59,688 nt of DNA from a bacterium (GTDB lineage: Bacteria; Patescibacteriota; WWE3; UBA101185; UBA10185). The translations under genes and the position numbers were made by a program. A model generated the notes under the pieces. It did no database searches. It saw only the letters and a program-made list of their open reading frames with translations, and was not told where the DNA came from. Position 1 is the first letter of the stretch. Every line of letters starts with the position of its first letter. The stretch is taken from NCBI GenBank assembly GCA_035358315.1, contig DAOPPB010000001.1:1-59688 (forward strand). The letters are read 5' to 3'. Positions 9,521 through 42,204 of the stretch are shown here, in pieces.

Positions 9521-9541
9521 TTCCCTACTCCTCCGGAAAAG

Positions 9542-9730
9542 TATGACAATCCTACATTAAAATACTATGACAATATTACAGGAAGAAACCATGACAATCT
9601 TACATTAAATTATCGGTAACAGAACCCAAACATTAAATTCCCCTAAAATACTATGGGACTAAAAAATCGGGGTAAAATAAATAAGCACTCAAACCTATAG
9701 TATGACAAACGTAACTATGACAATCTTACA
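9542..9730 (+). repeat. Iteron-like direct repeats (T/C)ATGACAAT-N2-TACA, 5 copies plus 1 degenerate
   Basis: Copies start at 9542, 9566 and 9590 (exact 24-bp phasing) and at 9701 and 9716. A degenerate copy at 9652 (aaaatactatgggact) shares its left flank with the 9566 copy. ACATTAAA recurs five times across 9554-9840. Confidence 0.65.
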
Positions 9731-32868: not shown

Positions 32869-33987
32869 TTAAACACTGAATCTAAAAACTGCCACATCTC
32901 CATCCTGCATAACATAATCCTTCCCCTCAAGCCTTATCAAACCCTTTTCTTTAGCGGTTTTTAAGCTTCCTATTTCCACTAAAGTTTCGTAATTTATTAT
33001 CTCGGCGGATATAAAACCTCTTTCAAAATCCGTGTGAATTTCCCCAGCGGCTTGTGGAGCTTTTGAACCTTTTTTAATTGTCCATGCCCGTACCTCTTTA
33101 GGACCCGCTGTGAAAAATGTATTCAATCCTAAAATTTCGTATCCTTTTTTTATCAATTTATCCAAACCGGAATATTCAATCCCAAGTTCTTTTAAGTAAC
33201 TTTCCCGTTCATTTTTATCAAAATCAGCCAGTTCGGCCTCTAATTTTGCGCAAATTACTATGGCGTCTTCTAAACCTTTAGGAAGCTTTTGTTCACTTTT
33301 TTTACTCAAATATTCCTCTTCTACATTCAGAACGTAAATCTGGGGTTTAAGAGTTAACAAATTTAATTCTTTGGAAGATTCTAATTCTTCTTCACTTAGC
33401 TCCAAGTCACTCGCAAAAACACCGTTGTTTAACCCTTCTAAAATTTTCTTTGCCGTTTCGTATTTTAATTTTACTTCCTTATCCGCCGAACCTTTAACTT
33501 CCTTTTCCAGTTTTTCCATTACTTTTTCAAGTGATTGAATATCCGCGAGCATAAGCTCCGTATTTACGGTTTGTCTGTCATTTTCAGGATTCTCCGAACC
33601 TGCTCTTACAACATTTTCATCTTCAAAAGCCCTGACAACATGGGCAATAGCATTTACCTCTCTGATATGCCCCAAAAAGGCATTTCCAAGCCCCTCTCCT
33701 TTTGACGCTCCTTTTACCAAACCTGCGATATCATAGAACTTTACCACCGCAGGAGTTACTTTTTCCGGTATTTCCCTGCCCTCAAAACCTCTACCGTAGT
33801 CATTTACAACTATTTTGCACAATTCTTCCAACCTATGATCGGGAACATCTACAACACCTACATTTGGCTCAATGGTAGCAAATGGATAATTTGCGGCTAA
33901 GGCGGCCTGGCGTTTTAATAATGCATTAAAAAGTGTGGATTTACCGACGTTTGGGAGCCCGATTATTCCTATTGATAGTGATGACAT
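32869..33987 (-). CDS. ychF: Ribosome-binding ATPase YchF
   Basis: GIIGLPNVGKSTLFNAL and a C-terminal TGS-like IHTDFERGFI. Confidence 0.95.
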   Translation of the reverse strand: MSSLSIGIIGLPNVGKSTLFNALLKRQAALAANYPFATIEPNVGVVDVPDHRLEELCKIVVNDYGRGFEGREIPEKVTPAVVKFYDIAGLVKGASKGEGLGNAFLGHIREVNAIAHVVRAFEDENVVRAGSENPENDRQTVNTELMLADIQSLEKVMEKLEKEVKGSADKEVKLKYETAKKILEGLNNGVFASDLELSEEELESSKELNLLTLKPQIYVLNVEEEYLSKKSEQKLPKGLEDAIVICAKLEAELADFDKNERESYLKELGIEYSGLDKLIKKGYEILGLNTFFTAGPKEVRAWTIKKGSKAPQAAGEIHTDFERGFISAEIINYETLVEIGSLKTAKEKGLIRLEGKDYVMQDGDVAVFRFSV

Positions 33988-34030
33988 AGAGTTATTTTAG
34001 CAGTGGGGGAAAAAAATTAAAATGAAAACC
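33963..34030. repeat. Direct repeat copy A (ychF codons 1-8 plus 43 bp upstream); putative att-like junction
   Basis: Aligns ungapped to 40982-41049 with 54 of 68 identical positions by hand count. Confidence 0.8.
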
Positions 34031-34071
34031 TTAATTAACTTTCATCACAAAGACTACCCACATGGTTAAAC

Positions 34072-35406
34072 CTATCTCGGGTTTACCTTAATTACATCGC
34101 CCAATTTGTGCTCAACACTATGTGTCACAACACATATAAAACCTACCCCAGGCTGGTAAAGATAGACTGCGGGCACGATATGTGCATAGGACAACGCTAT
34201 TTCTGCCGAAGCCCAATTAGATGTTTTACCACTCAAAAAAACGGGTTTACCAGGTTCTGTTTCCGGCGGGATAATCTCACCTAAATTTTTACTATCAACT
34301 ATTGTAAACCGATCTTTAGCATACTCAACCAAGGTTCCGCCTTGAAAGCCTTCTGTAACTTTCCAAGGTAAGGGCCCACTACCATTCCCTTCGGGGCAAT
34401 TGCTTCCCTTTATTCCGATAACACCACCTTTAATTTTACTGTCCGCCAATGCCACCTCACTCGGATGCAAAGCATGTAAAATGTTAATAATTAAAAACTG
34501 GGGAGCTCTGCCATCAATAACAAATTTTCCCCCTCTCTCTGCCATTTTCTGCAAGGCACTATAAACTGCAGACAACTCTTCCGGCTTCCAATCTAACCCT
34601 TTTATAGGCTCTCTACCTGGTAAAAAAATTTCCTCAGGTTTTTTACCAATCATCTCTGCTATAGATTCTATACTGATTTTTTCATACTCTGACATGATTA
34701 CTTTTTCCTCCTTAGGAGGTACTCTTTCCAAAAGATATGATGCTAACTCTCTCAGTGTTCCTGAATCTTTAAATTTCCCCCTATCAAGCCCAACTACAAC
34801 TCCTTCCGTTTCCCAGTCCTCACCGGGTGTTCTTATAAACGACTCAGACTGGGTTCCGTCTAGTGTTGAATGTAGGACGGCTAAAATGTTTAACCCGGTT
34901 CTATTTGCAAGTTCAACCCATTCAGTAATTTTTCCGGGGTCGGAAGAAATAACAATCATGGAGTTAGCTTCTTTACATATTTCTTCATTTTCAGGGCTAA
35001 CCACACCACCAACGTCAACCAGGGTAAAACGGCTGTTACTATTTGCAACCTGTAATTTCCAGTGGCCAACATTTTCTGGTGAAAAATCACCTTTATTTCT
35101 AAGTTGCCGTGCTAAATCACTATCCTCCCCATATAAATTCTGGGTCCAATCTCCCTCCCCATCGGGTTGCGCCGCCACCCGCATCGTATCCTCCAAAGGT
35201 AACATGCTTCGAATAAATCTCTCGGCTATAGACTTTCCGGAGTGTGGGGGACCCACAATTACTATTTTGGCCTCGTTGCCAATTTCCTTCTTAGCGGGTA
35301 TTTCATCTTTAGGAGCCTCGTTGGAATTCACGGATCCCGAGCCAGATTCACTCGATTTCTCAACAGAAAGCGATAAATCATTTTTATTAGGGTCGATCTC
35401 AAGCAT
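34072..35406 (-). CDS. P-loop NTPase fused to two tandem Csx3-like domains
   Basis: Walker A IVGPPHSGKS, and LVDVGG (Walker B / G3-like). Two C-terminal segments, KFVIDGRAPQFLIINILHALHPSEVALADSKIKGGVIGI and KPVFLSGKTSNWASAEIALSYAHIVPAVYLYQPGVGFICVVTHSVEHKLGDVI, resemble the Csx3 signature as I recall it. I use the ATG at 35406; a TTG at 35457 is the alternative start. Confidence 0.55.
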   Translation of the reverse strand: MLEIDPNKNDLSLSVEKSSESGSGSVNSNEAPKDEIPAKKEIGNEAKIVIVGPPHSGKSIAERFIRSMLPLEDTMRVAAQPDGEGDWTQNLYGEDSDLARQLRNKGDFSPENVGHWKLQVANSNSRFTLVDVGGVVSPENEEICKEANSMIVISSDPGKITEWVELANRTGLNILAVLHSTLDGTQSESFIRTPGEDWETEGVVVGLDRGKFKDSGTLRELASYLLERVPPKEEKVIMSEYEKISIESIAEMIGKKPEEIFLPGREPIKGLDWKPEELSAVYSALQKMAERGGKFVIDGRAPQFLIINILHALHPSEVALADSKIKGGVIGIKGSNCPEGNGSGPLPWKVTEGFQGGTLVEYAKDRFTIVDSKNLGEIIPPETEPGKPVFLSGKTSNWASAEIALSYAHIVPAVYLYQPGVGFICVVTHSVEHKLGDVIKVNPR

Positions 35407-35502
35407 AAATTTTCCGTTTTTAAAATAAAAATTCGTGAAAACTCTACTTCTGAACAAATGATAGCATTTTTTATAACAAAGAAAGAAAATGGAAGTAAAA
35501 AA

Positions 35503-35579
35503 AGCCCGGACGTTAAATATATGATTAGATTACAAAAGTGTCCTACCAACACTTGTTATCATATGCAAACATCCGGGCT
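35503..35579 (-). promoter_or_regulatory. Terminator-like hairpin + U-run inside the 5' leader of the NTPase-Csx3 gene (possible attenuator)
   Basis: AGCCCGGA (35503-35510) pairs with TCCGGGCT (35572-35579). On the minus strand the hairpin is followed by TTTTTTT, about 40 nt before the start codon. A 9-codon micro-ORF (MFAYDNKCW) with the SD-like GAGGGGAG lies inside it. Confidence 0.35.
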
Positions 35580-35729
35580 TTTCTCCCCTCAATGGAGCTA
35601 CACATTACCCATTAAGCTCTATGCAGGGTTTAGTTTGGCTTAACATTTGAATAAAATGTTATCTCCTTACCGATTGTTCGGTAATAAAAAACAAAGTTAA
35701 AAATATAATTTGGTTTTTTACCACAAAAC

Positions 35730-35803
35730 AAAAAAAGATGTTGCGGAGAGGCTCACATAGTTGCATTGAAATTTTCAATGTTAATATATGTGTGAGCCTC
35801 TCC
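35730..35803 (-). terminator. Strong rho-independent terminator of the 316-aa gene
   Basis: Perfect 13-bp stem GGAGAGGCTCACA (35745-35757) / TGTGAGCCTCTCC (35791-35803). On the minus strand it is followed by a T-run (the complement of aaaaaaa at 35730-35736). Confidence 0.8.
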
Positions 35804-35817
35804 TTTGATTGCTTCTC

Positions 35818-36768
35818 TTACTCTCTCAGCTGCAGGTTTGCAGCTAGGATTTCGGAAATCTTTGACCTTTCCCACGCCTCAGCCATCTCAGGTGTGGTTC
35901 CCACAAACATGACCCCCTCGCCGTTATAATTAATTACCAAAACCTTAAGACCTATTAATTCGTAACCCCCTCCGTCAACCAGGTCAACCAGGGCGTACAC
36001 TCCCCCCCTATAGTTATTATTTATCAATACCTCTCCCTGATACGGGGGTAACAAAACGTCACCCTTCTTGTGTTCGGTCACGGGATTAAAACTGAAATCC
36101 ACCCCATATAGGTCATAATAGACCCATTCAGTTCTATCCCTGTTTCTCTCTAGCCACCTCAAGGCTTCTTCGGCGTCCTTTCCGAGGACGTCAGAATAAG
36201 TCCTCCACCCATCCTGGGTGGCAATGTACCACCCCCCTGGTTCCCCGAATAAAGTCCCTTCGGGGACTTGGCTGACCACCGATCCTTCTACAAGAAAACA
36301 GTTGCCGTCTGGCAACTCTAGTAACTTGTAACCACTACCCACGACAAAAATATTTGAAGCAATTGCTTCAAATATTCTTACCCTATCCAGGCGTCCCTCA
36401 GGTTTAAAAAATAAAGCCTCCTCCCAGAAGGCCCTTTCATAAACCACGTCCGGATCCCCCTTTAGGATTTCTTCGACTTTTCTGTAGAAATCCCTCTCAT
36501 CATTCCAGCTCCAAAGGCCATATTTGAAATCAAGCCCGAGGGCCTTCTTCCCAACTTCAACTACAAAATCCCCCGGGACATTGCCCCTTTGAATAAAACA
36601 CATCAGCTCAAAGCTGATTTGCTTTGCGTCTTCCATGGCCTTCGGGATCAATTTGACCCCACATCCAAGATCAAGAGCTCTATTATAGAGCTCTTTAACA
36701 ACGCTTAACTCCCCCCTCACTTTGTATTTGTAATCGATTGGAACATATGGGTATATTTTCTTTGCCAT
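35818..36768 (-). CDS. Hypothetical protein, 316 aa, GC-rich relative to the genome
   Basis: Perfect SD GGAGGTAAAA before the ATG at 36768, and a strong terminator downstream. No motif I recognise. Confidence 0.6.
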   Translation of the reverse strand: MAKKIYPYVPIDYKYKVRGELSVVKELYNRALDLGCGVKLIPKAMEDAKQISFELMCFIQRGNVPGDFVVEVGKKALGLDFKYGLWSWNDERDFYRKVEEILKGDPDVVYERAFWEEALFFKPEGRLDRVRIFEAIASNIFVVGSGYKLLELPDGNCFLVEGSVVSQVPEGTLFGEPGGWYIATQDGWRTYSDVLGKDAEEALRWLERNRDRTEWVYYDLYGVDFSFNPVTEHKKGDVLLPPYQGEVLINNNYRGGVYALVDLVDGGGYELIGLKVLVINYNGEGVMFVGTTPEMAEAWERSKISEILAANLQLRE

Positions 36769-36850
36769 TTTTACCTCCTTTACGGGGTGGCAGACCCCAT
36801 GTTTTATTTCTATTAAGCTAATTTTGCTCAATAGCTAGTACAGGCATTCT

Positions 36851-37704
36851 TTTGGTAGGCAGGATTAAATACCTGTACATAGTTATTGAACAAATAATTA
36901 CGACGATTTTTGAATTTTCATTGATATGACTTAAATTTTCAAAGTACCCTTTCCTTAACTTTTTCCTAATCTCAACCCTGATTTTTTAAAAAAATAAGAG
37001 CTGAGTTAGGAGATCATCCTACAAAAGCAAGATGATGGACTCTCCCTTTTAGGTAGTATCCATAAACCTATTTGGCAGGATACTTTTGTCAGGAGTAAAC
37101 AGATTAATATTTACCACCCTTTAAAGTTCTTGTAATATCTGAACTTTTAAATTCTTCTTAGATCTTTTAATTTAAAATCTCTAAGAGCGAATATTTAAAG
37201 CAATCAATTTTTGGGCCACTCTCTTTAGACGGTAAACCGTCGCTTGCTTTGCAAGCTAAAAGCAGATTCCCTATATTTGTTAAGATTTTAACCTAACTTC
37301 TGAACAATTATTCATTATCCAGATGAGGTCTTCCTAATCCTTCTATTGTGGGGCCTTTATAATTTGGCAGGTTTGCCCAATCAATAACCATTATTTGGCG
37401 ATGAAAGATATAGGTGACTATATTTTTTTGTGTTTAAAAAGATTCAATTTTATCTTTTAAACAGAAATCTGTCCGAGATACCGGAATAAATTAGTACTCT
37501 CCCCGTTTAAATTAAAAAGATAAATGTTATCTTGAAACATGGGAATTTTGTTCGTGTATCTCAGGCAAGTTTTTGCTTAAAAGATTTCTCCGGATAAAAA
37601 AGCCGGGACCTAATGAGAATTATATTTTTTTAATTCTCACCAAATCTCGGCTTTTTGTTTTTTAAAAGAAAATCTTCTTTGGCAGGCCTTTAAGATTTGG
37701 TAGG
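36851..37704 (+). repeat. Dispersed same-orientation repeat family, core TTTGG(C/T)AGG, 5 copies
   Basis: Cores at 36851, 37071, 37363, 37678 and 37696. Two copies extend to about 19 bp (gcctttataatttggcagg at 37353-37371 against gcctttaagatttggtagg at 37686-37704, 16 of 19 identical). Spacing is irregular. Confidence 0.55.
37595..37662. terminator. Bidirectional terminator-like nested hairpin
   Basis: Outer stem AGCCGGGA (37601-37608) / TCTCGGCT (37645-37652) with one G-U pair. Inner stem GAGAATTA (37615-37622) / TAATTCTC (37631-37638). An A-run precedes it and TTTTTGTTTTTT follows. Confidence 0.55.
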
Positions 37705-37896
37705 TTCTTTTTTGCTTCTTATTTTTATATAGTTTTTAAAGTACCCTTCTGCCTTTCTCTTTTATCTTCCTTGACCTTGAACAAACACATTATAACTTAT
37801 AGTTTTATGTTTGTCAAGTGCTTTTGATAATTAATAAATAGTATAACTAGCTATTTTTCTCCCTTTATTAGGGATAATATACTATAAGTTTTTATA

Positions 37897-37918
37897 TTTG
37901 TCAAGTATATTTGACAAA
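37897..37918. promoter_or_regulatory. Palindromic operator candidate TTTGTCAA-N6-TTGACAAA overlapping TTGACA -35-like hexamers
   Basis: Perfect 8-bp inverted repeat 46 bp upstream of the TrmB-like gene ATG. The half-site TTTGTCAAGT with the same left flank (TATAA.TT.T.ATGTTTGTCAAGT) recurs at about 37795-37820. Confidence 0.55.
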
Positions 37919-37963
37919 ATAATAATTGACATAGTATTGGTCTTTTGGTATCTTCAAGAAGAT

Positions 37964-38740
37964 ATGTATTCAAAGATTTTAAAAGAGTCGGGATTAAAAG
38001 ATAAAGAAGCAATCGTTTATGACATATTATTAGAACACGGCACATTACCCGTTTCAGAAATCATAAAAAAATCAGGATTAAAAAGAGGTATAGTTTATAA
38101 AACACTTTATGATCTTCAAGATAAAGGTTTGGCCTCTCAAAAAATAATTAAAAAGAGGTTACATTTTAGTGCCGAACACCCATACAAACTCTCGGACCTT
38201 ATTGAAGAGCAGTTAAAGGAAGCACAAAACCATCAATTAACGTTACAAACCTATCTACCACAACTAATATCTGCCTTTAAAACCGGGGATAACAAACCAG
38301 GCGTGAAAATATACGAAGGGTTAAGCGGAATCAAAGAAGTTTACAACGACACATTAAAAGAGGGTAAGGAAATTTTGGCAATATTACAAACTTCGGAAGT
38401 GGAACCAAAAATTTACGAGTGGTTAACACACGTTTACAGCAAAAAAAGAGCGGATATGGGTATTTGGGCGAAAGTTATAGCAGCAGAGGACGTTAAAACG
38501 AAGGCGTATGTGAGTAAAAACGAGGCTGAAAAACGTGAAACAAGGGTTGTTCCCAAAGATAAGTTCCCTATTGGTATTGAAGTAGATATCTACGGTAACA
38601 AAGTGGCCTTTATAAACTTCCACAAAGATGGGGATTTAGTAGGCATTATTGTTCAAAACGAGCTTATTGCCAATACAATGTGTGCCATGTTTACATTAGC
38701 ATGGGAAAAAGCTGGCGACTATGTCACCCAGCTTCAGTAG
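37964..38740 (+). CDS. TrmB-family winged-helix transcriptional regulator
   Basis: N-terminus MYSKILKESGLKDKEAIVYDILLEHGTLPVSEIIKKSGLKRGIVYKTLYDLQDKGLA matches the TrmB HTH pattern. I use the ATG at 37964 rather than the upstream non-ATG start at 37898. Confidence 0.8.
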   Translation: MYSKILKESGLKDKEAIVYDILLEHGTLPVSEIIKKSGLKRGIVYKTLYDLQDKGLASQKIIKKRLHFSAEHPYKLSDLIEEQLKEAQNHQLTLQTYLPQLISAFKTGDNKPGVKIYEGLSGIKEVYNDTLKEGKEILAILQTSEVEPKIYEWLTHVYSKKRADMGIWAKVIAAEDVKTKAYVSKNEAEKRETRVVPKDKFPIGIEVDIYGNKVAFINFHKDGDLVGIIVQNELIANTMCAMFTLAWEKAGDYVTQLQ

Positions 38741-38746
38741 AAACTC

Positions 38747-40783
38747 TTAATATCTTCTAGAAGGTCTATGCGAAATTTCAAAATAAATCGTTCCATTTTC
38801 CATTTGTGTTCTTACCTCGCCTAATCTTCCTTGCCTATAGGATTCGCGCATATCCCAAAGTGCATCAGGTTGCCCCCCTCCCATATACATTATTGGGATA
38901 CCCATTGGCAACCCCCATGCATCCACATACCTGTTGTAGTCTATACCCGGGTCAAGTAATCCTATGGAGGCTACAGCGTAACTAAATTCCTGAGGGTCAA
39001 TTTCATCTACAACAAAATCTGGGTCTTTTTCTATAATGTAGTAACTATTATTAAATAGATTACTATCTCCTATTGGTGCCTCTTCTACTTTGTTTACTTT
39101 AAACCCAAATAGCTTTGCATACGCCCTAAATTGAGAATCGGTCATAGTCATCCTGTTAAATTTGTGTTTTTCATCAGGACCATCAAAGATGTTTCGCGTT
39201 CTCCCCGGTTCTACACCTAGTGACTCCAGATGTCTGGCATACCTGGTTATTTCCTCTGCATATTGATCCCGTACTTCTGAAACTCGATCTTCCGGTATTT
39301 TCGGAATATCTATAATACCAACGCCATTGTATGTCAGTACACGTTGCATTTCATCAAAGAAATTAGCCATTTTTTCTGGAGTATTGTTATGCAAAATAGT
39401 TCTACCCAAACAGTAAAATACCTCAGGAGACAAATCATCAAAGTAATTTCCATCGGGAAAAGGCATGTGATGCCAATCTGTCACAGCAACTTTAATAGAA
39501 GGGTCTTGTTCCTTAATTTTCCTGGCGTGATGCTGTTCATACTCCAAAGCCGTAACATCGTAACCTAATTTATGTAGAGGAACTGCATGCCTGCCTGTCC
39601 CGGCACCGACATCTATAATTCTTACCTGTCGTGCGGTCTTTCCAGTTCTCTCAGCAAATGCTTGTATTTGTTCTTGCACAATTCCTAACTCTCTAGTAGT
39701 TAATTCGGGATTATTTAAGACATACTGGTGAAAATCTACTGATTTATATATTTCGGTTAAGCTAGTCATTACCTGCTGAATATCTTGACCCTGTAATGTC
39801 TTGTATAAACGTGTTAACGCCTCGTTATTTCTGCTATGACTAGCTATTGACTCAATAGTAGGAACAACACCAAAAACATTCATTTCTTGAACAGCTAATA
39901 CAAGTCTAGCGCTATCACTTAACCCTTCAGAAGTAAGTAAGTCGGTCGCAACCTCTAATTCTTCCATTGTTTCTAGTTTTTCCAATACTTTTTTTACCGC
40001 ATGATTATTGCCTTCTTCAGCAAACTCCCGAGTTGCACGAACTACAAGAGGTAATAAATGTTCTCTCTCTTTATCGTATTCTCCCTTATTCCGTTGATAA
40101 CTTGGTCCGAATTCTTCACCTAGATAAGGACTGGTCATTTTAACTCGATTGTTCGCAACCCATAAGCGATATGTTAGGTATTCGAGCAATACCTCCCTCT
40201 GTTCAAAAGATTTATCAAAAAGTAATTGCTCTATTTTGGAAATACCAGAAAAAGCCGTTGTCTCCTCACCACTAAGTCTGGCCAATAAATCTCTTTTTCC
40301 TGGGTCTAATACCATTTCCATAGTCCGATGGTAATTCATTGCTTTACTATCCCAATAATCCTCAATAAATCTGTTCTCCTGGGTTGGCTTGCGGTAGAGC
40401 CGTTCAAACTGATTGAAGGAGAACCTCCACGCAGCTAAAACATGGCCAATATCTTCTTTTGTTCCCCCTGTTCTGATTATATTCCTGTGCGATTCCCAGG
40501 CGACACCGTCAATAGGTGCAAAATTTTCTATAGGTGTATATTCTTCGGCCACTTCGGGAACTCGGCTAATAATCTCAGCAAGTTGCTCGTGAGAAGTAAT
40601 ATTGGCTTCCAAACCCCATACAAAAACCGGCGATTCCTGATATTTTTTCGGGGATCCGTTAGTTTCAGTTGGTTCAGAAACTTTTGCATCGGGAAAAAAC
40701 TGATGTACTAAATCTTTATCAGCTTCTTTGTCCGGTGTAATGCTAACCACCTCTTCTTTTAGTTCTTCCGATGTAATGGGCAT
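38747..40783 (-). CDS. Large multidomain protein with central class I SAM-dependent methyltransferase fold
   Basis: RIIDVGAGTGRHAVPLHKLGYDVTALE (motif I and post-I) and LTYNGVGIIDIP. About 370 aa N-terminal and about 170 aa C-terminal are unassigned. A TTG at 40801 is the alternative start. Confidence 0.65.
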   Translation of the reverse strand: MPITSEELKEEVVSITPDKEADKDLVHQFFPDAKVSEPTETNGSPKKYQESPVFVWGLEANITSHEQLAEIISRVPEVAEEYTPIENFAPIDGVAWESHRNIIRTGGTKEDIGHVLAAWRFSFNQFERLYRKPTQENRFIEDYWDSKAMNYHRTMEMVLDPGKRDLLARLSGEETTAFSGISKIEQLLFDKSFEQREVLLEYLTYRLWVANNRVKMTSPYLGEEFGPSYQRNKGEYDKEREHLLPLVVRATREFAEEGNNHAVKKVLEKLETMEELEVATDLLTSEGLSDSARLVLAVQEMNVFGVVPTIESIASHSRNNEALTRLYKTLQGQDIQQVMTSLTEIYKSVDFHQYVLNNPELTTRELGIVQEQIQAFAERTGKTARQVRIIDVGAGTGRHAVPLHKLGYDVTALEYEQHHARKIKEQDPSIKVAVTDWHHMPFPDGNYFDDLSPEVFYCLGRTILHNNTPEKMANFFDEMQRVLTYNGVGIIDIPKIPEDRVSEVRDQYAEEITRYARHLESLGVEPGRTRNIFDGPDEKHKFNRMTMTDSQFRAYAKLFGFKVNKVEEAPIGDSNLFNNSYYIIEKDPDFVVDEIDPQEFSYAVASIGLLDPGIDYNRYVDAWGLPMGIPIMYMGGGQPDALWDMRESYRQGRLGEVRTQMENGTIYFEISHRPSRRY

Positions 40784-40976
40784 AAATTTATTATATTTCA
40801 AAAATTGAACAAAGTCGTTAGTTTTATAAGTGCAACGGGGGGCTTAGAATGTACTATTCTCCCTTCATGGTCCCGCTACACGATTACCCTACTCCCCAGC
40901 GGCTCCGGAAGTCTAACTTTTATTTGAAATGGGATCTTTTTCATGAAGTTACCAGGGAATAAATACTTCACCACGC

Positions 40977-41006
40977 TTAATTTATTCCTGTTGGAAGCGA
41001 CGACAT
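40977..41006 (-). pseudogene. Remnant of a ychF 5' end (MSSLPTGIN-stop)
   Basis: ATG TCG TCG CTT CCA ACA GGA ATA AAT TAA, compared with the genuine ychF ATG TCA TCA CTA TCA ATA GGA ATA ATC... Confidence 0.65.
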
Positions 41007-41049
41007 AGGTTTATTTTAGCAGTGAGATCGAAAAATGAAAATGAAAAAC
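40982..41049. repeat. Direct repeat copy B; putative att-like junction next to the tgt stop
   Basis: See 33963-34030. Confidence 0.8.
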
Positions 41050-41082: not shown

Positions 41083-42204
41083 TTATATTTCTTTCTGCAA
41101 TCTCTCCACCAGCAAACTATAAAATCTAAGATTATGTATGGTAGCCAACCTTAAAGATGTAGTTTCATCATTTTTAAAAAGATGATGCAGATAAGAGCGG
41201 TAATATCTTCTGCATAATAAGCAGTCACAAGCTTTACTCACGGGTTCTGTATCACAGTAATATTTTTGCTTGCATGGGTCAAAAAATGAGTAAAAATTAT
41301 CATCTCTAATGTCTATTTCGTTAATTGACTTAGCATTATAAACATATAATCTGCTATGACGAGCATCTCTAGTTGGAAGAACACAATCAAAAATATAAAA
41401 TCCTAAATCAAAACACTTAACAATCTCGTCGGGCTTTCCTACTCCCAGCCCATAAAGTAAATAATTTTCGGGCGAATTTTCCGCTATTATTCTAGGAACG
41501 TCAAAATTAAATTCCCCGTTTTCTCTTATCGGCCAGCCTCCGTACCCCAAGCCGTCGAAACCTATCTTTACCAGCTCTTTCGTGCAGTATTCTCGGAGAT
41601 CTAAATACTCTCCTCCCTGCACCACTCCCAAAATATAAGGTCTGTCTTTTTCATTCAGTTTTTCTTTTTCACAAATTCTTAAAAACTCCTCTTTTGATCT
41701 TTTTGCCCAAACAATCGTCCTTTCAACCGTTTCTTTCGCTTTTTCGTAAGTACATCCGGGCTCTGTAAAATCGTCCAAAACAACCACCATATCGGTTTTT
41801 AAAAGCATCTGAAACTGAATAGATTTTTCCGGGGTTAATTTTATCTTTTCCCCACCTTGAGGTTTAAATGTGACTCCCTCGTCTGTTATTAAGCCCCTTT
41901 TTTCGCTGTTTTTTGCCAGACTCATAACCTGAAAACCTCCCGAATCCGATATAACAGCGCCATTCCATGACATAAATTGTCTTATTCCGTCGTGTTTTTC
42001 AAGAACTCTTTTGCCCAAATCTTTGTACAAATGGTAAGTATTAACCAAAACCCCGGGCGTTTTCGTACTCTCTATGTCGGATGAATCTAGGGTTTTAATC
42101 ACTGCCCTTGTAGCATCAGGAAAAAACACCGGTAGAGGTATATCACCGAATTTTGTTTTAAATTTTTTAATCGTTCTTTTTGGAACCACAGTTGAATAAT
42201 ACAC
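41083..42204 (-). CDS. tgt: Queuine tRNA-ribosyltransferase (tRNA-guanine transglycosylase)
   Basis: Motifs VISDSGGFQVMSL, GLGVGKPDE and the zinc site CDCLLCRRYYRSYLHHL. GTG start. Confidence 0.92.
   Translation of the reverse strand: MYYSTVVPKRTIKKFKTKFGDIPLPVFFPDATRAVIKTLDSSDIESTKTPGVLVNTYHLYKDLGKRVLEKHDGIRQFMSWNGAVISDSGGFQVMSLAKNSEKRGLITDEGVTFKPQGGEKIKLTPEKSIQFQMLLKTDMVVVLDDFTEPGCTYEKAKETVERTIVWAKRSKEEFLRICEKEKLNEKDRPYILGVVQGGEYLDLREYCTKELVKIGFDGLGYGGWPIRENGEFNFDVPRIIAENSPENYLLYGLGVGKPDEIVKCFDLGFYIFDCVLPTRDARHSRLYVYNAKSINEIDIRDDNFYSFFDPCKQKYYCDTEPVSKACDCLLCRRYYRSYLHHLFKNDETTSLRLATIHNLRFYSLLVERLQKEI

What the first reader, a model, noticed from the sequence alone, without database searches (positions are those of the whole stretch)
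33963..41049. About 7 kb of accessory DNA between ychF and tgt is bracketed by a 68-bp direct repeat containing the first 8 codons of ychF
Positions 33963-34030 and 40982-41049 align without gaps at 54 of 68 positions by my hand count. Copy A is the real ychF start (ATG at 33987) plus 43 bp of upstream sequence. Copy B lies 7 kb away, just beyond the tgt stop codon, and reads ATG TCG TCG CTT CCA ACA GGA ATA AAT TAA (MSSLPTGIN-stop) against the genuine MSSLSIGII. Three of the coding differences are synonymous third-position changes (TCA/TCG twice, CTA/CTT). That pattern is expected if copy B came from a once-functional ychF allele rather than from chance similarity. Homology stops abruptly inside codon 9. 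Everything between the repeats is non-housekeeping and partly much more GC-rich than the flanks. This is the attL/attR signature of site-specific insertion into the 5' end of a gene, with the incoming DNA supplying a replacement 5' end and promoter. No integrase, transposase or relaxase lies inside; the only recombinase in the window is the Xer-like gene 25 kb away.
Basis: seen in the sequence. Interest (0 to 1): 0.8.

Follow-up and report, generated by a model that had tools for sequence, protein, structure and literature searches.

The report
Displaced ychF start flanking swapped island
In an uncultivated Patescibacteria genome, 7 kb of strain-variable accessory DNA sits where tgt and ychF are normally neighbours, and the old ychF promoter and first eight codons survive next to tgt as a scar; this is a real but fairly ordinary footprint of island insertion, and no integrase of its own was found.

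Summary
The 68-bp direct repeat is real: 54/68 ungapped, against a next-best match of 37/68 anywhere in the window and about 4e-8 expected by chance. It is present in independent assemblies. Five related lineages have tgt directly followed by ychF, four of them with one copy of the segment, so copy B is the displaced native ychF promoter plus codons 1-8. Copy A is the working replacement. The island is compositionally the most deviant part of the window.

The "attL/attR of a site-specific element" reading is only partly supported. No integrase was found in the window island or in the scanned or pre-annotated genes of the other island variants. The tgt-ychF interval is a hotspot. Strains 99% identical in the flanks carry different cassettes, with swap boundaries at the last tgt codon and about ychF codon 10. 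Part of the cargo (large protein, TrmB-like regulator, 1-kb non-coding block) is syntenic at this locus in other lineages without repeats.

In favour of site-specificity, a second independent event (L169/L091) breaks ychF within 1-2 nt of the same position, and both joints carry an inverted copy of the GGAATA core.

Best reading: a scar of homology-anchored insertion at a recombination hotspot, enzyme unresolved. Ordinary kind, new member.

The parts
40982..41049 (-). Copy B: relic of the native ychF promoter (extended -10, TGCTAAAAT) plus ATG and 8 codons, ending in a stop (MSSLPTGIN*). It is contiguous with tgt.
   Evidence: aligns to empty-site intergenic region plus ychF start of L089, L099 and L095. 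(promoter-like TTTTCA-17-TAAAAT with TG, minus strand 41041->41013). (codons 2-4 equal the L153/L154 working allele).
33963..34030 (-). Copy A: working ychF promoter, ATG (33987) and first 8 codons, lying on the island side of the joint.
32869..33987 (-). ychF (372 aa), followed by rpsF, ssb and rpsR in conserved order.
41083..42204 (-). tgt (373 aa). 99.1% DNA identity to strain L087 up to its last codon (41089), where the two strains' islands diverge.
34031..40981 (.). 6951-bp strain-variable island (configuration W).
38747..40801 (-). 684-aa protein with a central SAM-methyltransferase domain (residues about 390-500). 63% identical to the L096 protein at the same locus.
37898..38740 (+). 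TrmB-like winged-helix regulator (probable start ATG 37964). 83% identical to the L096 protein.
36832..37897 (-). ORF-less block conserved across lineages. It has two tandem near-consensus promoters (37904->37876, 37817->37789) and a terminator hairpin (37646->37607).
35818..36831 (-). p337: near-orphan protein of unknown function, GC 45.9%.
34072..35457 (-). P-loop NTPase fused to a C-terminal Csx3/Crn3 domain (the AAA-Csx3 family). Gene callers start it at 35406.
40956..40988 (.). Perfect 9-nt inverted repeat (GGAATAAAT / ATTTATTCC, 15-nt spacer) spanning the joint between copy B and the island.
   Evidence: shuffle p about 0.001. An analogous inverted core copy occurs at the L169 and L091 joints.

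Best explanation
Copy B is a scar. An ancestor had tgt, about 50-75 nt of intergenic DNA holding an extended -10 promoter, and then ychF. About 7 kb of DNA from a related lineage, in which cargo lay directly upstream of that lineage's own ychF promoter, was recombined in. The new DNA brought a working ychF promoter and start (copy A). The resident promoter and codons 1-8 were left stranded next to tgt (copy B), where the relic promoter now points into the methyltransferase-domain gene.

The island is not an autonomous mobile element. It belongs to a recombination hotspot between two conserved genes, where whole cassettes are exchanged between strains by homologous recombination in tgt and ychF.

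Shown: the repeat, the empty sites, the foreign composition, the cassette swap between 99%-identical strains, and the absence of recombinase genes in the genes examined.

Inferred: the original joint was made by host recombination anchored in the conserved P-loop-coding part of ychF, which begins at codon 9-10. The left end was joined illegitimately at the border of homology, either by one-sided homologous plus illegitimate recombination or by a single crossover of circularised DNA. It was not made by an island-encoded integrase. The enzyme is unresolved. I put about 0.5 on this host-recombination route and about 0.3 on a site-specific recombinase.
For: 1. Empty sites occur in three separate clades: L088/L089/L099, L095 and L100. 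The first four carry a single copy of the segment.
2. Copy B aligns to those sites right up to GGAATAA.
3. Copies A and B are as divergent from each other as from other clades' versions, so this was an import and not an in-place duplication.
4. The island has the window's strongest tetranucleotide and GC deviation. The Csx3 fusion is 71% identical to a copy in a lineage whose YchF is only 41% identical, which indicates horizontal transfer.
5. No integrase was found in the window island or in the scanned or pre-annotated genes of the other variants of the interval.
6. Same-species strains, 99.1% identical upstream and 98.8% downstream, carry different islands. The boundaries are at the last tgt codon and at ychF nt 30-54: five mismatches in nt 1-30, one at nt 54, then none up to nt 390.
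7. L093 keeps an internal ychF fragment (codons about 209-265) upstream of its cassette. This relic is not at the codon-9 position.
8. Relic-leaving displacement without an integrase is documented at T6SS and Rhs loci (PMC5361080). Single-crossover integration of recircularised DNA gives flanking duplications of the homologous segment (PMC3240628).
Against: 1. A second, independent event shared by L169-L172 and L091/L124 leaves a ychF relic that ends after GGAATAGT, within 1-2 nt of the window's break after GGAATAA. It too supplies a new -10 and new codons 1-8. Random illegitimate joints would coincide this closely in about 0.4% of cases over the whole gene, or about 4% if only pre-P-loop joints are tolerated.
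2. Both joints have an inverted copy of the GGAATA core in the inserted DNA.
3. The 'border of homology' argument is my inference and was not tested.
4. The donor sequence is unknown, so microhomology at the joint cannot be checked.
5. ychF and the region upstream of it are bona fide att sites for integrase-bearing elements in other phyla (PMC11551731, PMC10383233).
Confidence: 0.5

Rival explanations
1. One reading: a site-specific recombinase (tyrosine or serine) integrated a circular element into a core at ychF codons 7-9. The element carried a replacement promoter and 5' end. The integrase has since been lost or acts in trans, so the present island is a cis-mobilizable, integrase-less remnant flanked by attL and attR.
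For: The 3' edge of homology is sharp. Two independent events share it to within 1-2 nt, and both supply a substitute promoter plus 8 codons ending at the same place. An inverted copy of the core lies near both joints. The empty site has one copy of the segment. ychF is a known att target elsewhere (PMC11551731, PMC10383233). The classic analogue, from my own knowledge, is SXT integrating into the 5' end of prfC and supplying a new promoter and N-terminus.
Against: No integrase was found in the window island or in the scanned or pre-annotated genes of the other island variants. The only recombinase found among the window ORFs scanned is a housekeeping-type Xer next to rnhB, 25 kb away. No relatives turned up in IMG/VR, phage or plasmid collections. 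The other filled sites have no repeat next to tgt, and their left junction is at the tgt stop. The identical runs between the copies are short (at most 15 nt). The inverted repeat is not placed where core-type arms of known integrases would be: the sequence switch is at the edge of an arm, not within a 6-8 bp overlap or at the centre of the dyad. Part of the 'element' is syntenic at this locus in lineages without repeats.
Confidence: 0.3
2. Reverse polarity: the filled state with both repeats is ancestral for the clade, and the 'empty' tgt-ychF sites arose repeatedly by homologous deletion between the two copies.
For: The large-protein + TrmB + non-coding module is widespread at this locus, at flank-like divergence. 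Empty and filled sites are interleaved on the tgt tree. Direct repeats of 68 bp can mediate precise deletion.
Against: Only the window lineage keeps a copy next to tgt. This model still needs an earlier insertion into a tgt-ychF junction to create copy B, so it changes the timing and not the nature of the event. L100 has tgt and ychF only 5 nt apart without the promoter segment.
Confidence: 0.12
3. In-place duplication: a 68-bp target-site duplication made by a transposon, or a local tandem duplication followed by insertion of cargo.
For: Direct repeats flank the insert. An IS30-like transposase occurs in one variant of the interval (L091).
Against: The copies differ at 14 of 68 positions while the flanks are 99% identical between strains. 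They are as different from each other as from other clades. The island has no transposase and no terminal inverted repeats at its ends. 68 bp is far beyond known target duplications.
Confidence: 0.03
4. Chance or convergent similarity of two AT-rich promoter regions, or an assembly chimera.
For: The best-conserved block is the promoter (CACTGCTAAAATAA), which could recur at other genes.
Against: The match extends through ATG and 8 codons. It is 17 matches above the best other match in the window, with an expectation below 1e-7. The profile of the segment hits nothing else in the fetched loci searched except ychF starts and relics. The same structure is found in independent assemblies.
Confidence: 0.01

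Closest known systems
SXT/R391 integrative conjugative elements at the 5' end of prfC (from my own knowledge; Hochhut and Waldor 1999)
   Same: Insertion into the 5' end of a conserved translation-associated GTPase-family gene. The incoming DNA supplies a new promoter and N-terminal codons, so the gene stays functional. Short direct repeats flank the insert.
   Different: SXT encodes its own tyrosine integrase, excisionase and conjugation genes, and recombines at a defined 17-bp core. Here no recombinase or transfer gene was found, the repeat is 68 bp at 79% identity, and part of the cargo is native to the locus in related lineages.
Cis-mobilizable elements (CIMEs) and other integrase-less island remnants flanked by att sites (from my own knowledge; Streptococcus thermophilus)
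   Same: Accessory DNA bracketed by att-like direct repeats, with no integrase or transfer genes.
   Different: CIMEs have a known cognate ICE whose integrase uses the same att site. No such partner was found for ychF in this lineage.
Elements that use ychF as attachment site: pipolins with large serine recombinases (PMC11551731) and a pneumococcal satellite prophage integrated upstream of ychF with 26-bp att sites (PMC10383233)
   Same: The same target gene region.
   Different: They occur in other phyla, carry integrases and have short, near-identical att sites. There is no sequence relationship to this island.
Displacement relics at T6SS effector-immunity, Rhs and CDI loci, attributed to homology-facilitated illegitimate recombination (PMC5361080)
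   Same: An incoming module anchored in a conserved flank displaces the resident gene end, which stays behind as an orphan fragment. No integrase is involved, and the loci are strain-variable hotspots.
   Different: In those loci the relics are 3' ends or immunity genes and accumulate in arrays. Here a 5' end plus promoter of a housekeeping gene is displaced, once.
Single-crossover (Campbell-type) integration of recircularised DNA, which gives a duplication of the homologous segment (PMC3240628)
   Same: It produces direct repeats of exactly the segment shared by insert and chromosome, without a site-specific recombinase.
   Different: It was shown experimentally with 109-950 bp of identical homology in E. 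coli. Here the homology is 68 bp and divergent.

Membership tests
Integrase-mediated integrative island (attL/attR) | Direct repeats bracketing the insert, derived from the target site | tested here: met
   54/68 repeat containing the ychF promoter and codons 1-8.
Integrase-mediated integrative island (attL/attR) | Empty site with a single copy of the segment in relatives | tested here: met
   L088, L089, L099 and L095 have tgt, one copy of the segment, then ychF. L100 has tgt and ychF 5 nt apart.
Integrase-mediated integrative island (attL/attR) | Integrase or recombinase gene inside or next to the island | tested here: not met
   Pfam finds none in the four island ORFs. None is found in the genes of other variants that were scanned or carry precomputed Pfam hits. 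The Xer-like gene is 25 kb away.
Integrase-mediated integrative island (attL/attR) | The same crossover position in independent insertions | tested here: inconclusive
   Two independent events break at ychF nt 25-26. However, L093 has an internal ychF relic, and the other filled sites have junctions at the tgt stop.
Integrase-mediated integrative island (attL/attR) | Identical core shared by attL and attR, with recombinase-binding arms around it | tested here: inconclusive
   The identical blocks are 14, 10, 8 and 7 nt long. There is a 9-nt inverted repeat at the joint, but it is not in a canonical arrangement.
Integrase-mediated integrative island (attL/attR) | Excised circle (attP) and restored attB detectable | not testable with these tools
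   No read-level data are available. The junction pattern is absent from IMG/VR.
Cis-mobilizable element (integrase-less, att-flanked) | A cognate integrase-bearing element using the same att site in related genomes | tested here: not met
   None was found among the fetched relatives of the interval or in IMG/VR.
One-sided homologous plus illegitimate recombination product (HFIR) | Relic of the resident sequence next to the insert, with the other end of the insert continuous with homologous DNA | tested here: met
   Copy B abuts the island. Copy A runs without a break into ychF.
One-sided homologous plus illegitimate recombination product (HFIR) | Donor-type tract in the anchor gene next to the insert | tested here: inconclusive
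   Only ychF nt 1-30 are divergent between W and L strains (5/30), followed by one mismatch at nt 54 and none up to nt 390. Later homogenisation could have erased a longer tract.
One-sided homologous plus illegitimate recombination product (HFIR) | Microhomology of 3-10 nt at the illegitimate joint | not testable with these tools
   The donor sequence upstream of ATTAAGCG is unknown.
Transposon with target-site duplication | Transposase, terminal inverted repeats and short identical duplication | tested here: not met
   There is no transposase and no terminal inverted repeats. The copies are 79% identical and 68 bp long.
Csx3/Crn3 ring nuclease family (cargo gene 34072-35457) | Csx3 domain | tested here: met
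   Pfam Cas_csx3 7e-12 at residues 386-457. The PADLOC AAA-Csx3 model covers residues 65-458, E 3e-35. The TIGR02579 score is below its cut-off.
Csx3/Crn3 ring nuclease family (cargo gene 34072-35457) | Association with a type III CRISPR-Cas locus | tested here: not met
   The window has no CRISPR-like array, and none of the ORFs scanned is a cas gene. Homologues sit in unrelated contexts. Not all window ORFs were scanned.

The most novel reading that the evidence does not exclude
Patescibacteria of this clade have a recombinase-in-trans, or otherwise unrecognised, site-specific cassette-insertion system. It targets ychF codons 7-9 (core ATAGGAATA[A/G]T). The inserted DNA always brings a replacement promoter and first eight codons, plus an inverted copy of the core. 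This would explain two independent insertions with the same breakpoint and no integrase in the cargo.
Probability: 0.2. Interest if true: 0.65.

Novelty: new member of a known kind. Interest (0 to 1): 0.36.

Why it matters
It is a clean, sequence-level example of how a reduced, uncultivated Patescibacteria genome gains and swaps accessory genes at a fixed hotspot between two housekeeping genes. It leaves a datable scar and probably captures the stranded promoter for a new gene. If the recurrent breakpoint at ychF codon 8/9 reflects a dedicated recombination system, it would point to an unrecognised route of gene-cassette exchange in a phylum with few known mobile elements. The locus also exposes a conserved 1-kb non-coding block and two interchangeable 'large protein + TrmB-like regulator' cassette types that deserve study on their own.

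Tried and rejected
1. GTDB species representatives, queried with YchF. The closest genome is only 62% identical and tgt is not near ychF there, so this was uninformative for the locus.
2. Search for relics next to tgt in the other filled sites. None was significant.
3. Possible tgt 3'-end remnant left of copy A. Not significant.
4. ATTAAG hexamer at both inner ends of the island. Noted by eye and judged too weak to use; it was not tested separately.
5. Rfam at gathering and at permissive thresholds on the island. Only noise.
6. Fold of the 180-nt leader between copy B and the methyltransferase gene. No better than shuffles, z = -0.4.
7. Relatives of p337, MT684 and the junction or att patterns in IMG/VR. 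None.
8. Island DNA against plasmid and phage collections. No match.
9. p337 structure prediction. pLDDT 38, unusable, so no fold search was made.
10. tRNA remnants in the window's non-coding block, since L159 has three tRNAs there. None.
11. Duplicated ychF starts in 116 loci from other bacteria. Besides the window strain's own contig (L003), only intergenic repeats in L008 and L071, so it is not a general phenomenon.
12. My early reading of L126 as a recombinant tgt. Withdrawn: the drop in protein identity comes from a roughly 64-nt gap and frameshift in that contig.
13. The divergent first 30 nt of ychF between strains. I first took this as independent support for a crossover at codon 10. 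It is equally expected from homogenisation of the flanks up to the edge of the heterology, so I do not count it.
Full report
**Observation.** All the genes concerned are on the minus strand. In order they are tgt (42204->41083), copy B (41049->40982), about 7 kb of other DNA, copy A (34030->33963) and ychF (33987->32869), followed by rpsF, ssb and rpsR.
- The two 68-nt segments match at 54/68 without gaps.
- The best other match of copy A in the window is 37/68. Random 68-mers reach at most 43/68. The expected number of matches this good over all position pairs is below 1e-7.
- Copy B reads ATG TCG TCG CTT CCA ACA GGA ATA AAT TAA. Homology to ychF ends after GGAATAA.
- Both copies are present in contigs assembled independently from other samples (L001, L003).

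**Organism.** The window is from a Patescibacteria lineage. The nearest GTDB representative has only 62% YchF identity, and named relatives at about 65% are WWE3-type. The matching JGI, ENA and Logan contigs are all metagenome assemblies.

**Was tgt-ychF once contiguous?** Yes. A metagenome scan with the tgt protein gave a graded series of relatives.
- tgt is directly followed by ychF in L088, L089 and L099 (tgt 88-90% identical), in L095 (83%) and in L100 (73%).
- In the first four, a single segment matches both copies: tgt stop, about 50-60 nt, CACTGCTAAAATA..., ATG TCx TCx CTx TCA xTA GGA ATx. A profile of that segment hits once in each of them and twice only in the window strain.
- Copy B, which is contiguous with tgt, aligns to the empty-site sequence up to GGAATAA (z = 27 against L089).
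- A same-species strain (L153/L154, YchF 98%) starts its working ychF with ATG TCG TCG CTT TCA ATA GGA ATA GTC. This is copy B's synonymous signature without copy B's two non-synonymous changes.

**Was one copy imported?** Copies A and B are no closer to each other (54/68) than to the orthologous segments of other clades (45-54/68). Yet the flanks of strains of this species are about 99% identical. An in-place duplication or a target-site duplication is therefore excluded unless it is very old. One copy came from another lineage.
- The island holds every 3.5-kb window of the contig with a tetranucleotide z-score above 1.5 (peak 3.4).
- p337 (45.9% GC) and the Csx3 fusion (42.0%) stand out against 37.3% for the window.
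- The Csx3 fusion has a 71% identical homologue in a lineage whose YchF is only 41% identical.

**What the interval looks like across the clade.** It is a hotspot, not a single insertion.
- L087/L126 are 99.1% identical to the window from 46000 down to the last tgt codon. From there they carry a different 764-aa protein plus a TrmB-like regulator (27% identical to the window's). They then rejoin the window's non-coding block at 86.6% identity.
- L096 has the window-type pair (63% and 83% aa identity) and a different 235-aa gene, but no repeat, no p337 and no Csx3 fusion.
- L169 has a third version of the large protein + TrmB pair, and the non-coding block at 72% identity over 907 nt.
- L093/L159 have about 16 kb, including three tRNA genes.
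- L091 has an IS30-like transposase and Fic. L097 has a toxin-antitoxin pair. L098 has 8 kb that includes rlmN and Fic.
- None of the genes in these variants that I scanned or that carry precomputed Pfam hits is an integrase.
- Apart from the window, no filled site has a relic next to tgt; their left junctions lie at the tgt stop.
- Within the window's own species there are two configurations, W and L. Their difference spans exactly from the last tgt codon to about ychF nt 30. Contigs from mixed samples break at that point (L002, L153).
- Cassette exchange by homologous recombination in the two conserved flanks is therefore directly visible.
- The large-protein + TrmB + non-coding module is a long-standing tenant of the locus. 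It is not cargo of a discrete element.

**Evidence that keeps a site-specific mechanism alive.** L169-L172 (YchF 84%) and L091/L124 (85%) share a different event.
- Immediately upstream of their working ychF lies a relic of the canonical promoter, ATG and 8 codons. In L169 it reads ...CACCGCTAAAATAATCCC ATG TTA TCA CTT TCA ATA GGA ATA GT|.
- After the relic come about 55 nt of unrelated DNA, a new -10 (TAGAAT) and a new, synonymously very different start: ATG TCA TCT TTA AGT ATC GGA ATA GTA.
- The spacer is unrelated to the window's island ends, so this event is independent.
- Its breakpoint is nevertheless within 1-2 nt of the window's.
- In both events the inserted DNA carries an inverted copy of the GGAATA core close to the joint. 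The window has GGAATAAAT-N15-ATTTATTCC (shuffle p about 0.001). L169 has GGAATAG-N26-CTATTCC (p about 0.05). L091 has ATTCCGATG/CATCGGAAT.
- ychF and its upstream region are att sites for integrase-bearing elements in other phyla (PMC11551731, PMC10383233).

**Weighing the mechanisms.**
- Against an integrase:
  - no recombinase was found in any variant examined;
  - no related element is present in viral, phage or plasmid collections;
  - junctions elsewhere are variable;
  - L093 has an internal ychF relic (codons about 209-265);
  - the inverted repeat does not sit where the arms of known integrase sites would.
- A non-site-specific route fits these facts. DNA from a 'filled' lineage (cargo, promoter, ychF) pairs with the recipient through the conserved P-loop-coding part of ychF, which begins at codon 9-10. 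The heterologous tail is then joined at the border of homology. Alternatively, a circularised fragment integrates by a single crossover.
- Relic-leaving displacement of this kind is described for T6SS and Rhs loci (PMC5361080). Duplication by single crossover of recircularised DNA has been shown experimentally (PMC3240628).
- The shared border of homology could explain the shared breakpoint, but that is my inference and is untested.
- My estimates are about 0.5 for host recombination, 0.3 for a site-specific recombinase (lost or acting in trans), and 0.12 for the reverse-polarity variant. In that variant the filled state is ancestral and empty sites arose by deletion between the repeats. It would change the timing, not the nature, of the event.

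**Function of the parts (inferred).**
- Copy B keeps the extended -10 (TGCTAAAAT) and points into the 684-aa methyltransferase-domain gene 180 nt downstream. The stranded promoter may now drive that gene.
- Copy A's -10 ends 9 nt before the ATG with no Shine-Dalgarno sequence, so ychF is probably leaderless or nearly so.
- The cargo comprises:
  - an AAA-Csx3 fusion, a family known as a type III CRISPR accessory, here without any CRISPR-Cas nearby;
  - a near-orphan 337-aa protein with three remote homologues among 1.84 billion representatives;
  - a TrmB-like regulator;
  - the methyltransferase-domain protein;
  - a conserved non-coding block.

**Verdict.** The specific claim of an attL/attR pair from a site-specific element is not established and is, on balance, less likely than recombination at a hotspot. 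This is a new example of a known kind of feature. It is of moderate interest mainly for Patescibacteria genome dynamics and for the recurrent breakpoint.

Noticed in passing
window 36960-37917 (minus strand); L169 7777-8599; L087 14403-14622; L093 17826-18082 / L159 988-1244: An ORF-less block of about 0.95 kb next to the TrmB-like gene is conserved at 72-87% across lineages whose neighbouring protein cassettes differ. It opens with two tandem near-consensus promoters that are invariant in four lineages, and it has a strong terminator hairpin (37646->37607). This implies an RNA of about 180 nt followed by further conserved blocks. There is no Rfam match. In L093/L159 it is followed by tRNA-Glu, tRNA-Gly and tRNA-Trp. 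It is a candidate new small RNA or leader.
   Followed up: partly
window 35818-36831 (-): p337 is a near-orphan. Only three remote homologues (45%, 39%, 29% identity) were found among 1.84 billion representative proteins. Its GC content is 45.9% against 37.3% for the contig. A single-sequence structure model was unusable (pLDDT 38).
   Followed up: partly
window 34072-35457 (-); L146 10001-11311: A P-loop NTPase fused to a Csx3/Crn3 domain (the AAA-Csx3 family) is present with no CRISPR array or cas gene in sight. Homologues at 64-75% identity are scattered in unrelated contexts in other Patescibacteria, one of them in a lineage whose YchF is only 41% identical. This suggests horizontal spread of an orphan cyclic-oligoadenylate-related gene.
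   Followed up: partly
window 40956-40988; L169 9919-9980; L091 3890-3985: The inserted DNA next to each ychF relic carries an inverted copy of the GGAATA core: a 9-nt perfect inverted repeat with a 15-nt spacer in the window, and 7-9 nt repeats in L169 and L091. In L169 and L091 the inverted copy and the new codons 5-8 bracket the new promoter. The meaning is unknown; it could be a recombination signal, a regulatory hairpin or chance.
   Followed up: partly
L093 13844-14013: A 170-nt internal fragment of ychF (codons about 209-265, 74% identical to the window's gene) lies between tgt and the 795-aa cassette gene. It is a second kind of ychF relic and is not at the codon-9 position.
   Followed up: partly
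window vs L087 (11225-14373), L093 (14069-17306), L169 (4672-7777), L096 (11705-14553): Two unrelated families of 'large protein (680-800 aa) + convergent TrmB-like regulator' occupy the same slot after tgt. The regulators of the two families are 27-32% identical, and the large proteins share no detectable similarity. Strains that are 99% identical in the flanks carry different families. This looks like functionally analogous, interchangeable cassettes of unknown role.
   Followed up: partly
L002 position 1; L153 position 1: Contigs from two other assemblies end 18 and 43 nt upstream of the ychF ATG. This is exactly where the two island configurations converge, which suggests that co-existing strains break assemblies at this hotspot.
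   Followed up: no
L126 around 764-767 (= window 41223-41289): This otherwise 98-99% identical tgt copy lacks about 64 nt, which would frameshift the gene. It is either a pseudogene or an assembly error.
   Followed up: no
window 9537-9609: Three tandem copies of a 24-nt unit (73% matches) lie in an intergenic stretch near the Xer-like gene.
   Followed up: no
L154 2-97, L091 2796-3824, L098 9584-10711: A Fic-domain gene lies directly upstream of the ychF promoter in three separate lineages, including the alternative configuration of the window's own species. In L154 only the C-terminal 31 residues are on the contig, and the Fic assignment there rests on similarity of that tail. Fic-ychF adjacency seems to be another recurrent state of this interval.
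   Followed up: no
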